From positions 78,306,001-78,370,000 of the forward strand of contig OX597822.1 of NCBI GenBank assembly GCA_951406725.2: a stretch of DNA of 64,000 bases. The letters are read 5' to 3'. The stretch's first letter is position 1. Each line of letters begins with the position of its first letter. Under the pieces are notes generated by a model. It saw nothing but the letters and a program-made list of their open reading frames with translations. It was not told where the DNA came from and ran no database searches. Below are positions 1,276 through 64,000 of this stretch, piece by piece. The DNA comes from Octopus vulgaris. Taxonomy: Eukaryota. The translations under genes were made by a program, and so were the position numbers.

Positions 1276-1314
1276 GAAGGAGGATGAAATGTATATATAT
1301 ATATATATATATAT

Positions 1315-1575
1315 AAATATATCCATATATACATACATATATGTACATACCTACATATATATGTATATATACATGCATATATGGGTACAGGACATCAAAA
1401 AAATTAACAAAAAGAGACACAAGAACAGAAAAAAACACAGAAAACAAATTTTTTGTCGAACAAAAGAAACAAATAGAGAAACGAGACAGGCAACATAAAG
1501 AACATTCCCTTCATCAGTTGTCCCTCGTTTTATCTACCCCGCATTTCGATGGTAGGGACAAGACGCAACTTCATA
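1315..1575 (-). mobile_element. Short non-coding interspersed element carrying a rearranged hammerhead motif (copy 1)
   Basis: Co-linear similarity with 26320-26600 (atatgtacatacctac...atatgggtacaggaca..aaaa...ttcccttc.tcagt). Confidence 0.7.
1506..1568 (-). ncRNA. Putative non-circularly permuted hammerhead ribozyme (copy 1)
   Basis: Minus strand reads UGCG-UC^-UUGUCCCU-ACCAUC-GAAA-UGCG-(14 nt)-AGGGACAA-CUGAUGA-AGGG. Stem I is 8 bp perfect, stem III is 5 bp with 2 G-U, stem II is weak. Confidence 0.65.
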
Positions 1576-4539: not shown

Positions 4540-5755
4540 CACAGGATTAACCATTAAGCAAAATAAGCACGTGCTTGGGCATGAAGGGAAGCGGGGTACC
4601 AGAGAAATGGTAAATGGTTTACAGCGAAAAACAAATCAAAGTTTTTAAACTTGCTAAAATAGTATTCAGGATGCTTAAGGGGGCGAGCTGGCTGAAACGT
4701 TAAGCACGCCGGGCGAAATGCTTAGCGGTATTTCGTCTGCCGTTACGTTCTGAGTTCAAATTCCGCCGAGGTCGACTTCGCCTTTCATCCTTTCGGGGTC
4801 TATAAATTAAGTACCAGTTACGCACTGGGATCGATGTAATCGACTTAATCCGTTTGTCTGTCCTTGTTTGTCCTCTCTCTGTTTAGCCCCTTGAGGGTAG
4901 TAAAGAAATAGGTATTTCGTCTGTCTTTAAGTTCTGAGTTCAAATTCCGCCGAGGTCGACTTTGCCTTTCATCCTTTCGGGGTCGATAAATAAGTACCAG
5001 TTGCGTACTGGGGTTGATCTAATTGACTGGCCCTCTCACCCCAAAATTTCGGACCGTGTGCCTAGAGTAGAAAACAATATAGCTGCTATCTAAGGCAGCG
5101 AGCTGGCAGAAACGTTAGCACACCAGGCAAAATGCTTAGCGGTATTTCGTCTGCCGCTACGTTCTGAGTTCAAATGGAGCCGAGGTCGACTTTGCCTTTC
5201 ATCCTTTCGGGATCGATATAATCCGTTTGTCTGTCCTTGTTTGTCCCCTCTGTGCTTAGCCCCTTGTGGGTAGTAAAGAAATAAGTATTTCGTCTGTCTT
5301 TTCATTCTGAGTTCATATTCCGCCGAGGTCGACTTTGCCTTTCATCCTTTCGAAGTCGATAAATTAAGTACCAGTTGCGTACAGGGGTTGATCTAATCGA
5401 CTGGTCCCCTCCCCAAAAAATTTCGGGCCTTGTGCCTAGAGTAGAAAAGAATATTCGGGATGCCTTATCTCTACAAAGTATAGAAGCAGATGTTTTACAT
5501 AAGATTAATTTTGAGGATCTGATCAAAAACTTTGCAATTAGAAAAAGTAAGAGAAAACTTTTCAAATATAAATCAAGTGGAAGTATACATAAATAAACGT
5601 TATTTTCCATCTTGCTGTTTCGTTTCATTTTATCTATTTCACGGTTTATTATCGTTTGTATTTTGAACTACATATATATGGGGCACCAAAATTTTTAAGT
5701 GCTTAGGGACTCAAAAATTTTGGTGCTTAGGGACTCTGTGGGTCTTGACCCGGTT
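4540..5755 (+). mobile_element. Non-autonomous hAT-derived element interrupted by a SINE multimer
   Basis: 5460-5565 translates LSLQSIEADVLHKINFEDLIKNFAIRKSKRKLF, resembling the C-terminal dimerisation region of hAT transposases. Degenerate terminal sequences ggattaacc... / ...gggtcttgacccgg. Confidence 0.5.
4680..5450 (+). mobile_element. Multimeric tRNA-derived SINE family B insertion (four core units)
   Basis: Repeated ttctgagttcaaattccgccgaggtcgactttgcctttcatcctttcggggtcgataaa core; probable TSD tattcaggatgc / tattcgggatgc. Confidence 0.9.
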
Positions 5756-25845: not shown

Positions 25846-25947
25846 TGTGTCTGTGTGTGTGTGTAATTAATGAAGGATAAAACGATTTAATGATTTTATT
25901 GGACAGCATGTTAAAACCATTTAGGTAACTATTTATACACATATATA

Positions 25948-26090
25948 ATTATATAGATATAATTATAGCAAAGGGTGTGGATAAACCACACGAACATGGT
26001 AGAAATAGATGCTAATAGGTCTATAAACCACATATTATTTTTACTCCGTTAGCACATCCACACCTTTTGCTATAATCATATCTATATAAT
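25948..26090. repeat. Foldback with ~35-bp arms
   Basis: attatatagatataattatagcaaagggtgtggat / atccacaccttttgctataatcatatctatataat. Confidence 0.85.
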
Positions 26091-26104
26091 GATACATCAG
26101 TGTA

Positions 26105-26190
<86 letters not shown>

Positions 26191-26218
26191 TGTATGTATG
26201 TATGTATGTATGTATATG

Positions 26219-26250
<32 letters not shown>

Positions 26251-26264
26251 TGTATGTATGTATG

Positions 26265-26305
<41 letters not shown>

Positions 26306-26319
26306 TAATAAATAAAACA

Positions 26320-26600
26320 TATGCATATATACATACATATATGTACATACCTACCTCAACATGTATATATACACGCATATATGGGTACAGGACACCAAAA
26401 AAAAACGTCGAACACAATGAGAAACGAAAACATAAACACAAAACCAAGGAACTGGACATTTTTCTTAAACAACAACAAAAATAGAGTACAGGACAAATAA
26501 TACAAGGAAAATTCCCCTTCTTCAGTCGCCATGGTTTCATCTACTCTGCGTTTCGAAGGTGAAGGCGATACGCATCTTCAATAGAAACTTTCCTTCCCGC
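26320..26600 (-). mobile_element. Interspersed element carrying a rearranged hammerhead motif (copy 2)
   Basis: Homologous to 1315-1575. Confidence 0.7.
26514..26574 (-). ncRNA. Putative non-circularly permuted hammerhead ribozyme (copy 2)
   Basis: Minus strand reads UGCG-UA^-UCGCC-UUCACCUUC-GAAA-CGCA-(16 nt)-GGCGA-CUGAAGA-AGGGG. Stems I and III are perfect. Confidence 0.7.
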
Positions 26601-27375
26601 GAAAAGCAAATTAAATAAAATTTGAGATCTTTTTGCGGAGGGGTAAAAATGGTAACAAAAACAGGACAGTAACGACAGTACAAAATATAAACAGTAAAAG
26701 ACAGGACAAGGAGAATAACAAGACAAGAAGGGCTGTTAAGCCGAACGAGAAAAAGTATTACGAACGCTATTTTTGAGAACGGCGAAGGAGCAACAGAAAA
26801 TACCGTCCACACTTCAATGAGAGAAATATAGTATGATGGAATTTTATTCAGCCATTTGAAATTCTTATATAACAACAAATTGTTTCGCAACTTAAAAGAT
26901 AATTTATTTTGTTATATTTTATAAGTAACTTGCTTACATGTCTACATTGATATACACAATCTTTAGATTAATGCAAACATTAAGCTTTCCTCATCAGGCT
27001 AGAAGGAGTCTATGTTAAAAAAAATAATCCCTCGACATAACGCTTCAAGAACGCAGTGTTAATACTTAAAAAAGAACCTTGAAAAATATGGAAGACGATA
27101 ATAATAAAATTAATTGAAATTAATAAGACAGTTTTCTAAAGAAGGGAAGGGAAATTTAGTAAGATAATAAAAAAGTAACTTTCAGATAATTTTGACATTT
27201 TTTAAACAGGGATTCGTTTCTAACCCATGGATGTTTTCTAACTTACGCTCCGAAATTTTTATAGAGGTTTCAGTCAGCGTAATAAAGACTAGCTATAAGA
27301 AGAATTCATCATTCTCTCTCTCTTTCTCTCTCTGTAATTAATATAATAAGGACGGAGAATTGTACACCCACAAAG

Positions 27376-32907: not shown

Positions 32908-33311
32908 GTTCTGTTATATGATTTCAGATCAAAATTCGTTAAGCATACAAATATAATATAAATAAATAAATATTTATACTTTCTCATACCCACTTAATAT
33001 AATTAAACTAATTAACCAGGGTGTGATATATTTTCCATGGGATACATTTTCCATGCTCCTTATTCACTCGCTATCAATTTCATATTTCCCCACTCTATTT
33101 ATAAAACATATACGAAGTGGCATTTAATTTGAACAACTGACATTTAAAACAGTAATCTATATATCATACTTAATATATACACAGCGTGGATAGACCAGCT
33201 CCAACGGTATTCATTCTGAGTTAACATTTCCTATGGATGTTCTATGTTAAAAACGCAATGAATATCGGAAGGAGACAAAAATAATCGTCACAGTAGCATC
33301 CAGTGAGGGTA

Positions 33312-33764
33312 CCAGATACATCTCAGCCTTTTAGGACCTTTTAATGACGTGTACCGGCAGCCAGATGTATCTCAGCCTTTTAGGGTCCTTTTAATGACGT
33401 GTACTGGCAACCAGATACATCTCAGCCTTTTAGGGTCCTTTTAATGACGTGTACCGGCAACCAGATGTATCTCAGCCTTTTAAGGCCCTTTTAATGACGT
33501 GTACCGGCAACCAGAATTATCTCAGCAATTTAGAGTCCTTTTAATGACATGTACCGGCAACCAGATACATCTCAGCCTTTTAGGACCCTTTTAATGACGT
33601 GTACCGGCAGCCAGATGTATCTCAGCAATTTAAGGTCCTTTTAATGGCGTGTACCGGCAACCAGATACATCTCAGCCTTTTAGGGCCCTTTTAATGACGT
33701 GTACCGGCAACCAGATACATCTCAGCCTTTTAGGACCCTTTTAATGACGTGTACTGGCAGCCAG
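33312..33764. repeat. 50-bp minisatellite, 9 copies
   Basis: Unit ccagatacatctcagccttttagggcccttttaatgacgtgtaccggcaa starts at 33312, 33361, 33411 ... 33711. Confidence 0.97.
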
Positions 33765-34795
33765 CCACATACTTAGGCGAAAACTCATCACCTTTGATGT
33801 AGGTAAAAGAGAATAAAACATTCACTAATACTGCGAATAGTTGTCCGGTTGAATAAAAATCCAGTATATGCAATTGAAGCAGTATAAAATTAACATGGTC
33901 GTCTACGTACTGTGTTTAACGTAAAAACATCGTTGATAGGCCAGTTATTTGTTGTTATAGAAGTAGCTGTTGCTGTTTTAATACCATGATCAGCTCTGAT
34001 CAAGCAGACCTATATTCGAGGAGATGGTCAGTCGTGACCATCCCATTGTTTTGTATATCTTGGATAACATTGTTTAACGTGTTCTTTCTTCTTCTTTTTT
34101 TAAGGTAGTAGATTATTTGTGGGAGATATGGCTGCTGTTGTTCTTTAACTCCAGGTCAGCTTTCATCAAGCAGATACATGATGAAAAGTGTTCTAGCCAT
34201 GACATTACTATCGGGATTTTTGGTAGGGGGGGTCTGTTTTGACAATACATATTGAACTATATTATTTTTATGTTATTCCAATTTAAAAGAAACTTTGGAA
34301 TGGAGATTTGGCTGCTATTTCGAGCATGTCGAGTAACTATGTAAAGGTTGCTTTGTTGGCAGGCGTGATCTGGTGTTGTCACAGCGAACGCCCAAGAAAT
34401 GTTCTCTAAAACGATCGGCTAGTCACCAACTAGTTTCACCGATATACAAAAAGCTGCTGCCATTTTGTGTAAATCATTATTCTCTCACCCTACCGTGCAT
34501 AGAGAAGAAGGTAAAGTCAGAGGTTATAATATAAGAAAATAAAATTAGAAAACGTTAGCTGACAGCACTATTCAAAGAGAACAACATTGAAAATATACTG
34601 AAAGAGTAACCATGGAAAATTCACTAATAGAAAAACACAATGAAATACCAATGCACAGGTACAGGACATGTAATATAAGCCATGGAATCTACCAGAAATT
34701 AACCAGTGAATACTTTTTAAGGAGGCGTTGATGATTTTATCAGTTATAGCAATATTTCCATGTTCCTTTTCAACTTCCGCTCATATTACTGTCAT

Positions 34796-40847: not shown

Positions 40848-41248
40848 GGAATGGTTGTGGGTAAGTAGCTTGCTTACGAACCACATGGTTCCGGGTTCAG
40901 TCTCACTGCGTGACACCTTGGGCAAGTGTCTTCTACTATAGCCTCGGGCCGACCAAAGCCTTGTGAGTGGATTTGGTAGACGGAAACTGAAAGAAGCTTG
41001 TCGTATATATGTATATGTATATGTACGTGTGTGTATATGTTTGTGTGTCTGTGTTTGCTCCCCCCCCAACATCGCTTGATAACCGATGCCGGTGTGTTTA
41101 CGTCCCCGTAACTTAGCGGTTCAGCAAAAGAATCGATAGAATAAGTACTAGGCTTACAAAGAATAAGTCCTGGGGTCGATTTGCTCGACTAAAAGAGCGG
41201 TGCTCCAGCATGGCCACAGTCAAATGACTGAAACAAGTAAAAGAGTAA
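40848..41248 (+). mobile_element. SINE family A
   Basis: Canonical sequence. Confidence 0.9.
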
Positions 41249-63399: not shown

Positions 63400-64000
63400 G
63401 TTTTTTCTACTCTAGGCACAAGGCCCAAAATTTTGGGGCAGGAGGCCAATCGATTAGATCGACTCCAGTACGCAAGTGATACTTAATTTATCAACCCCCG
63501 AAAGGATGAAAGGCAGAGTCGACCTCGACAGAATTTGAACTCAGAACATAAAGACAGACGAAATACCCATTTCTTTACTACCCACAAGGGGCTAAACATA
63601 GAGAGGACAAACAAGGACAGACAAACGGATTAAGTTGATTATAACGACCCCAGTGCGTAACTGGTACTTATTTAATCGACTTCGAAAGGATGAAAGGCAA
63701 AGTTGACCTCGGTGGAATTTGAGCTCAGAACGTAGCGGCAGACGAAATACCTATTTCTTTATTACACACAAGGGGCTGAACACAGAGAGGACAAACAAGG
63801 ACAGACAAACGGATTAAGTCGATTAATCGACCCCAGTGCGTAACTGGTACTTATTTAATCGAACCCGAAAGGATGAAAGGCAAAGTCGACCTCAGCGGAA
63901 TTTGAACTCAGAACGTAGCGGCAGACGAAATACCTATTTCTTTACTACCCACAAGGGGACAAACAAGGACAGACAAACGGATTAAGACGATTATATCGAC
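63400..64000 (-). mobile_element. Tandem array of SINE B internal units (~180-bp period) running off the window end
   Basis: gaaaggatgaaaggcaaagtcgacctc...cagacgaaatacc...acaaacggattaag recurs three times. Confidence 0.9.

What the first reader, a model, noticed from the sequence alone, without database searches (positions are those of the whole stretch)
26514..26574. Second, diverged copy of the permuted hammerhead shows compensatory changes
Seen: UGCG-UA^-UCGCC-UUCACCUUC-GAAA-CGCA-16 nt-GGCGA-CUGAAGA-AGGGG. Relative to copy 1, stem I pairs 2 and 4 change U-A to C-G on both strands, and stem III G-U pairs become Watson-Crick. The free N7 changes U to A and the triplet changes GUC to GUA, still NUH. 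Core changes fall only at tolerated positions while the surrounding element is well diverged. Inference: this is a dispersed mobile family, perhaps a Penelope-dependent non-autonomous element or retrozyme, under selection for a rearranged self-cleaving RNA. It could act in cis as a pseudoknot or in trans between tandem units.
Basis: partly seen in the sequence, partly recalled or inferred. Interest (0 to 1): 0.9.

Follow-up and report, generated by a model that had tools for sequence, protein, structure and literature searches.

The report
Split-core permuted hammerhead in Naiad retroelements
Thousands of jumping-gene copies in this animal genome, and related elements in corals, a box jellyfish, a squid and a parasitic worm, carry a likely self-cutting hammerhead RNA whose parts are shuffled and whose catalytic core is predicted to be completed by a strand lying upstream, a wiring I could not find described; cutting itself is untested.

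Summary
The motif is real (minus strand, predicted cut 26569/26568). It has the non-circular S-G-C hammerhead order, which Eckert et al. 2023 found only in metatranscriptomes. It lies in a ~790-nt non-coding Penelope-like unit with at least 10,536 exact pattern hits (control 194). Across 17 subfamilies the core is invariant while stems I and III covary.

The strand before GAAA pairs with an upstream strand (26596-26592), not with the AGGGG after CUGAnGA (89 versus 1 of 122 hits fully paired). A second upstream strand pairs next to stem I. The ring is therefore likely opened between A9 and G10.1, a position the published six-permutation scheme treats as unbreakable.

The same layout sits in the 3' UTR of Naiad retroelements in three phyla, a clade reported to lack canonical hammerheads. 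Copies' 5' ends pile up just after the predicted cut (24 versus 3), consistent with cleavage in vivo. A second (coral-type) set did not show this pile-up.

Cleavage is not shown, and no young autonomous partner was found. Verdict: new variant of a known ribozyme, high interest.

The parts
26300..26820 (-). Copy 2 of a ~790-nt non-coding Penelope-like unit (subfamily A1), 5'-truncated about 250 nt before the cut, with its 3' end running into a (TA)n/(TATG)n tract
26601..26610 (-). U-rich strand that may pair weakly with the G-rich strand after A9 (outer helix). Weak in this subfamily, clear in others
   Evidence: about -3.8 kcal/mol for an A1 copy; coral-type loci; inferred
26592..26596 (-). 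U1, GAAGG: predicted 5' strand of helix II; its first G would be G10.1
26580..26588 (-). U2: pairs with 26541-26534 to form the helix that ties the far ends of helices I and II
26564..26574 (-). S block: stem III strand UGCG, U16.1, A17, predicted cut between 26569 and 26568, stem I strand UCGCC
26555..26559 (-). 3' strand of helix II, CCUUC (last C = C11.1)
26547..26554 (-). GAAA core plus stem III strand CGCA
26534..26541 (-). Partner of U2 (GAUGAAAC)
26519..26530 (-). Stem I strand GGCGA plus CUGAAGA core
26512..26518 (-).
26106..26300 (.). (TA)n/(TATG)n microsatellite at the 3' end of the insertion, the preferred target type listed for octopus Naiads
   Evidence: (PMC8557442 supplement)
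1300..1574 (-). Copy 1 (subfamily B), truncated about 12 nt 5' of its cut (1562/1561), so it lacks U1 and U2; carries decay changes in stem III

Best explanation
This is a hammerhead-type RNA motif in the non-circular S-G-C order inside a high-copy non-autonomous Penelope-like unit, predicted to self-cleave in cis at 26569/26568 with its helix II likely built from an upstream strand, so that the chain would be open between A9 and G10.1. Shown: the sequence order, the invariant core, covariation of helices I, III, upstream-II and U2, the Penelope-like insertion pattern, and the same layout in Naiad 3' UTRs. Inferred: the five helices form together as a multiple pseudoknot; the 5' and 3' flanks close as an extra outer helix at the A9/G10.1 position, with a further hairpin in many families; the RNA cuts, processing longer or tandem transcripts into unit-length or 3' fragments; and a Naiad-type RT/GIY-YIG protein copies these RNAs into (TA)n tracts, so many copies end just 3' of the cut.
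For: Core U16.1, GAAA and CUGAnGA are identical in 17 of 17 subfamilies, with NUH = GUC 7, GUA 4, AUC 2, GUU 2, AUA 2. Across distinct strand types: stem III 38 of 44 Watson-Crick, stem I 29 of 30, upstream helix II 24 of 25 (P=0.016, 5 types), versus 11 of 35 for the strand after A9 (P=0.74). Generic scan: upstream partner fully paired in 89 of 122 hits, control windows 46 of 484, after-A9 strand 1 of 122. Coral-type loci: outer helix 7/7 paired in 39 of 46. The same architecture was read by eye in the published consensus sequences of Naiad_Ovul, Obim, Esco, Amil/Anas, Naiad-2_Movir and Plae. The motif lies 1.3-1.7 kb downstream of Naiad-type RT remnants in 4 of 9 loci. 5' ends: 24 in [0,30) versus 3 in [-30,0), p=5e-5. 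HRIMA-1 SGC ribozymes with the same set of helices cleave in vitro (PMC10085705).
Against: No cleavage data. The nested minimum-energy fold of copy 2 (-35.3 kcal/mol) contains none of the ribozyme helices; this is expected for pseudoknots but shows a strong competing fold. The 5'-end step at the cut is absent in coral-type loci: 12 versus 9 of 79. The outer helix is weak in subfamilies A, B and D, and G-G follows the first base after A9 in 17 of 17 subfamilies, which fits the ordinary alternative. No published precedent was found for a helix-sized insertion at A9/G10.1 being active. In the anole Poseidon element, hammerhead cleavage was not needed for insertion in vitro and no RNA-seq ends were found at the site (PMC11167929). 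All RT hits found are broken or partial, though A1 copies are 95-97% alike, so the mobilising enzyme is unidentified. No RT match was seen within the coral-type loci (31 had at least 1 kb upstream).
Confidence: 0.72

Rival explanations
1. Ordinary type-SGC hammerhead: G10.1 comes from the strand after CUGAnGA (one extra base, then a weak G-C, G-U, G-U, G-C helix II), and the upstream strands form a folding aid or an off-switch that is displaced, wholly or for the first 1-2 pairs, before cutting.
For: An extra base between A9 and 10.1 and a G10.1-C11.1 pair are listed signatures of Penelope-like hammerheads (PMC4209133). This register is 94.3% paired in 24 copies. AGGG or UGGA follows A9 in 17 of 17 subfamilies.
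Against: That pairing is mostly G-U with 1 double-sided change and is no better than shuffles. In family E, the coral-type loci, Plae, Movir-2 and Esco the strand after A9 is not complementary to the strand before GAAA, while the upstream strand is.
Confidence: 0.15
2. A hammerhead-derived folded RNA that no longer cuts but serves as a binding or packaging signal for the Naiad protein; the 5'-end pile-up reflects reverse transcriptase stalling in the pseudoknot.
For: Hammerhead cleavage was dispensable for Poseidon in vitro. 8 of 9 tested Xenopus retrozyme dimers did not cut (10.64898/2026.07.22.740005). No step at the cut in coral-type loci. 14 of the 24 piled-up ends lie at +15 to +29, near stem III.
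Against: All catalytic bases and NUH are kept across families whose stem strands are only about 48% (III) and 65% (I) alike. 10 of 89 and 20 of 91 ends lie at 0 to +14, past the downstream strands of stems I and III, and only 1 of 89 lies between -60 and -5.
Confidence: 0.1
3. The ribozyme works only in trans, by strand exchange between tandem units or two RNAs, like the minimal type I hammerheads of other Penelope-like elements.
For: Partial head-to-tail tandems exist. Subfamily B has a self-complementary CGCG stem III strand. Minimal Penelope-like hammerheads act as dimers.
Against: Most stem III strands are not palindromic. All partners are present within one unit. SGC ribozymes were shown to cut as single constructs.
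Confidence: 0.03

Closest known systems
Type-SGC hammerhead ribozymes / HRIMA-1 (Eckert et al. 2023, PMC10085705)
   Same: S-G-C block order; short link from stem I to stem II; a helix binding the far ends of stems I and II; full core.
   Different: Known only from metatranscriptomes, none in genomes of known organisms. There the helix II strand follows CUGAnGA directly and block C is assumed unbreakable. Here that strand and the tying strand lie upstream of the S block, and the flanks pair at A9/G10.1.
Type I hammerheads in pseudo-LTRs of Penelope-like elements (Cervera and de la Pena 2014, PMC4209133)
   Same: Position near the 3' end of a Penelope-like unit; many fast-diverging families with covariation; G-C pair next to G12.
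   Different: Those are C-G-S, often minimal with a palindromic stem III and dimeric. This is S-G-C with full 4-5 bp stems.
Naiad Penelope-like elements (Craig et al. 2021, PMC8557442)
   Same: (TA)n targets, 5' truncation, partial tandems, inverted 5' copies and short tail extension. The motif is in their 3' UTR.
   Different: Reported to lack canonical hammerheads; Ovul and Esco were flagged only as 'HHR_half_core', Movir-2 as 'HHR_core'. The window's element has no coding region.
Animal non-LTR retrozymes (10.64898/2026.07.22.740005)
   Same: Non-coding, one hammerhead per unit, derived from or dependent on Penelope-like elements.
   Different: Defined by type I hammerheads in tandem arrays. 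Here most copies are single or 1.x units with a permuted motif.

Membership tests
Hammerhead ribozyme | Core CUGAnGA, GAAA and NUH with A15.1-U16.1 | tested here: met
   17 of 17 subfamilies
Hammerhead ribozyme | Helices I, II and III flanking the core, with covariation | tested here: met
   I and III. II with the upstream strand:
Hammerhead ribozyme | Site-specific self-cleavage after H17 | not testable with these tools
   Indirect only: 5'-end pile-up, absent in coral-type loci
Type I, II or III hammerhead | Circular block order C-G-S, G-S-C or S-C-G | tested here: not met
   5, 0 and 3 of 156 copies with loose stems; no Rfam hit
Type-SGC hammerhead (Eckert 2023) | S-G-C order | tested here: met
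Type-SGC hammerhead (Eckert 2023) | Helix joining the far sides of stems I and II | tested here: met
   U2 helix 68 of 72 Watson-Crick; register optimised per family, so the statistic is inflated
Type-SGC hammerhead (Eckert 2023) | Helix II strand directly after CUGAnGA (unbroken block C) | tested here: not met
   1 of 122 versus 89 of 122 for the upstream strand; P=0.74 versus 0.016. A weak 2-4 pair version stays possible in subfamilies A-D
Penelope-like element | 5' truncation, partial tandems, inverted 5' copies, tail extension, microsatellite targets | tested here: met
Naiad (autonomous) | N-terminal GIY-YIG plus RT open reading frame in the same element | tested here: not met
   The ~790-nt unit runs tail-to-head with no room for one. 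RT remnants are linked only to the N-type motif
Non-LTR retrozyme | Type I hammerhead in tandem repeats | tested here: not met
   Order is S-G-C; upstream tail motif at unit distance in 10 of 184 rows
Non-LTR retrozyme | Circular RNA monomers | not testable with these tools
   Only contigs were available

The most novel reading that the evidence does not exclude
Naiad retroelements across at least three animal phyla, and their non-coding parasites, use an active hammerhead of a seventh wiring. It is non-circularly permuted and opened inside the catalytic core between A9 and G10.1, where one or two extra helices make a four- or five-way junction and the rest of the transcript enters. Its cut defines the 5' end of many genomic copies.
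Probability: 0.62. Interest if true: 0.92.

Novelty: new variant of a known kind. Interest (0 to 1): 0.86.

Why it matters
It would be the first non-circularly permuted hammerhead in the genome of a known organism within the literature I could search, and at very high copy number. It would break the assumption behind the six-permutation scheme that CUGAnGA and helix II cannot be separated. It would explain why Naiads appeared to lack hammerheads. The A9/G10.1 junction would become a natural insertion point for engineered switches. The pile-up of 5' ends offers a genomic read-out of ribozyme cutting in Penelope-like elements, whose role is an open question.

Tried and rejected
Rfam scans: on the whole window the 150 listed of 267 matches were nearly all microsatellite-driven miRNA models, with no hammerhead among them; on 26400-26820 there were 2 chance hits.

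Repeat finder on the window was swamped by microsatellites.

Conventional layouts were rejected. Helix II without the extra base was rejected: 5 of 25 Watson-Crick.

One search had a wrong anchor for subfamily B; it was redone. The per-position outer-helix table was off by one; it was corrected.

Sequencing runs: no RNA holder listed. Contigs of 4 guessed-RNA runs dip in depth around the cut, but they cannot show ends and may be DNA, so they were not used.

Search for an intact, young autonomous partner: 134 of 752 candidates were scored and all were broken or partial. Of 20 further RT loci, 2 carry the N-type motif on the RT strand and none carries an A-D unit in place. tblastn of the RT fragment on 120 coral-type loci found no hit.

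A possible helix between the conserved GAGUAG linker and the U-rich upstream strand was seen in some families only and is unresolved.

The look-up of earlier findings by place and by sequence was blank.

PMC3334697 and PMC4509812 were not held. A paper citing the latter mentions hammerhead variants 'containing additional helices', so a precedent for an extra core helix cannot be excluded.

Full report
Observation. The minus strand at 26574-26514 reads UGCG UA ^ UCGCC UUCA CCUUC GAAA CGCA (16 nt) GGCGA CUGAAGA AGGGG. A descriptor for the order cleavage block, GAAA block, CUGAnGA block with 4-bp stem III and 5-bp stem I finds this site and copy 1 (cut 1562/1561) and nothing else in the window, and 0 hits in 60 shuffles. 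Copy 1 is cut off about 12 nt upstream of its site. Its G-U pairs in stem III are private decay, since its relatives mostly have CGCG:CGCG.

The element. The window is G000:C9:78306001-78370000 of a 2.8-Gb genome. The pattern CGAAA-N18-34-CUGAnGAAGG has 10,536 exact matches against 194 for the reversed control; a 3' tail motif has 5,976 against 0. Both are lower bounds on copy number. Copies are variably 5'-truncated and end in (TA)n-type tracts. Some carry an inverted 5' piece or the tail of a previous unit in front. Tail runs into head with a period of about 790 nt in subfamilies A-D. These are the insertion features described for Penelope-like elements, Naiads included (PMC8557442, passages). 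The best A1 matches are 95-97% identical to copy 2.

Covariation. On a MAFFT alignment of 24 hand-picked natural copies, stems III, I and the after-A9 version of II were 94.7% paired, 9 of 14 pairs changed on both sides, and 0 of 500 shuffles reached the score. Helix II in that register was mostly G-U with one double change. I then assigned 152 upstream-intact copies to 17 subfamilies by nearest natural reference; truncated copies were dropped. Core letters are identical in 17 of 17. Over distinct strand types stem III is 38 of 44 Watson-Crick and stem I 29 of 30. Families are related, so the shuffle P-values are indicative only.

The five bases before GAAA have a fully complementary partner 22-29 nt upstream of the cut in all 17 subfamilies (one with a G-U): GAAGG:CCUUC, GAACG:CGUUC, GAGCA:UGCUC, GACAC:GUGUC. 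Located without reference to its partner, it scores 24 of 25 Watson-Crick over 5 types (P=0.016), against 11 of 35 for the strand after A9 (P=0.74). Directly behind it a second upstream strand pairs with the stretch just 5' of stem I (68 of 72; register optimised). A generic scan of all loci then held (1.02 Mb) gave 122 distinct hits. The upstream partner was 5/5 paired in 89, control windows further upstream in 46 of 484, and the after-A9 strand in 1. The scan also revealed a further family E with GGCUG:CAGCC and, in L042, AGCUG:CAGCU.

These two helices are the helix II and the I-II tying helix of validated SGC ribozymes (PMC10085705; parts 3-6 of 8 read; supplement not read), but their strands lie upstream. 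In that paper CUGAnGA and the adjacent helix II strand are assumed inseparable, and no SGC RNA was found in the genome of a known organism. The inference is that the ring is opened between A9 and G10.1.

Other animals. Craig et al. report that Naiads lack canonical hammerheads but flag 'HHR_half_core' or 'HHR_core' in some. Reading their consensus sequences by eye (supplement parts 24 and 25 and passages), I found the same order with upstream helix II and tying helix in six entries: Naiad_Ovul and Obim (octopus), Esco (squid; 4 of 5), Amil/Anas (coral; 5 of 6 in Amil, only the 3' part of Anas seen), Naiad-2_Movir (box jellyfish) and Plae (acanthocephalan). In the last three the bases after A9 pair with a strand upstream of a hairpin that precedes U1, giving a five-way junction. 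I did not read all Naiad entries; one in part 16 looks like the ordinary SGC form.

The coral-type motif was then checked with tools. Of 46 with the upstream hairpin, the outer helix is 7/7 paired in 39 (24 all Watson-Crick) and helix II 6/6 in 28. In G000 the Naiad-type motif has 273 exact hits (control 0). It lies 1,336-1,669 nt downstream of RT remnants on the same strand in 4 of 9 loci (RVT_1 matches below Pfam's cut-off) and downstream in 2 of 20 further RT loci. In subfamilies A, B and D the outer helix is weak (-2 to -4 kcal/mol).

Footprint of cutting. I mapped 5' ends in 89 distinct copies chosen only by the 3' tail motif (from the first 100 of 5,976 matches, all on contig C1; 4 rows flagged as internal deletions dropped). 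24 lie 0-29 nt after the predicted cut, 3 in the 30 nt before it (two at -2 and -3; p=5e-5) and 5 in the next 30 nt downstream (p=5e-4). A partly overlapping sample of 91 anchored on the G and C blocks gives 19 versus 5 (p=0.007). 39 or so of the 89 copies extend well past the site, so uncut or circular templates are also used. End points come from local alignment and are fuzzy by a few bases. Against this reading: coral-type loci show 12 versus 9 of 79, stalling of reverse transcriptase in the pseudoknot could explain ends at +15 to +29, and Poseidon's hammerhead was dispensable in vitro with no RNA ends at its site (PMC11167929, passages).

Mechanism. Most likely (0.72) the transcript folds in cis: the S block binds the G block (stem III) and the C block (stem I), the upstream strand supplies helix II and ties it to helix I, and the flanks pair where A9 and G10.1 would be joined. 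The RNA would then cut after A17, and a Naiad-type protein would copy cut and uncut RNAs into TA tracts. Every step after the pairing pattern is inferred. A nested folding program gives none of these helices, so a competing inactive fold is plausible. The rivals are an ordinary SGC fold with an upstream switch (0.15), a non-cutting structural signal (0.10) and an obligate trans dimer (0.03). A shared CATCC(A/T)TT motif near the 3' ends of Naiad_Ovul and of subfamilies A, B and D hints at the partner, but no intact enzyme gene was found.

Literature. Nine searches were run. 'type-SGC' occurs only in PMC10085705. Naiad plus ribozyme since 2022 gives one relevant preprint, which used type I descriptors only (10.64898/2026.07.22.740005, parts 1-3 of 5). 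None of the listings or passages described a helix at A9/G10.1. Also seen: PMC4209133 part 2 of 4; passages of PMC13725137, PMC3088659, 10.64898/2026.09.16.752053 and PMC10162972. PMC3334697 and PMC4509812 were not available, and subscription papers are not searched. Hammerhead numbering and the structural role of G10.1-C11.1 are from established knowledge, recalled.

Verdict. A real, strongly covarying hammerhead-like RNA of an apparently undescribed wiring in Naiad elements and their non-coding dependants. It works like a type-SGC hammerhead but fails one defining feature of that type (unbroken block C). New variant of a known kind; interest 0.86.

Noticed in passing
L042:-, L069:-, L070:-, L146:-, L170:+, L284:- (G000): A further family (E) with the same split-core layout, a long hairpin before U1 and a different, shorter 3' tail; found by chance in flanks of other loci.
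   Followed up: partly
PMC8557442 supplement, parts 16-19: One Naiad in part 16 looks like an ordinary SGC hammerhead with the tying helix after A9. Elements in parts 17-19 have a strand after CUGACGA complementary to the stretch before stem I. Naiads may hold both forms.
   Followed up: no
window 26541-26546 (minus): The linker GAGUAG after stem III is kept in subfamilies A, B and D without a consistent pairing partner; unexplained.
   Followed up: partly
L010, L038, L049, L240-L259: A CATCC(A/T)TT motif near the 3' terminus is shared by the Naiad-type element and subfamilies A, B and D; a possible recognition site for the RT or endonuclease.
   Followed up: partly
G000 genome-wide: Subfamily A1 is young (95-97% identical) while all Naiad RT hits scored are broken or partial; the active enzyme source is unknown.
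   Followed up: partly
window 25932-26106: Imperfect inverted repeat of about 175 nt (71% self-match) directly beyond the microsatellite.
   Followed up: no
window 33287-33836: Tandem array with a 50-nt period.
   Followed up: no
window 4727-4982, 63496-63751, 40861-41033, 5284-5455: Other dispersed repeat families (8 copies each of about 172 nt; one pair of 256-nt arms 92% complementary).
   Followed up: no
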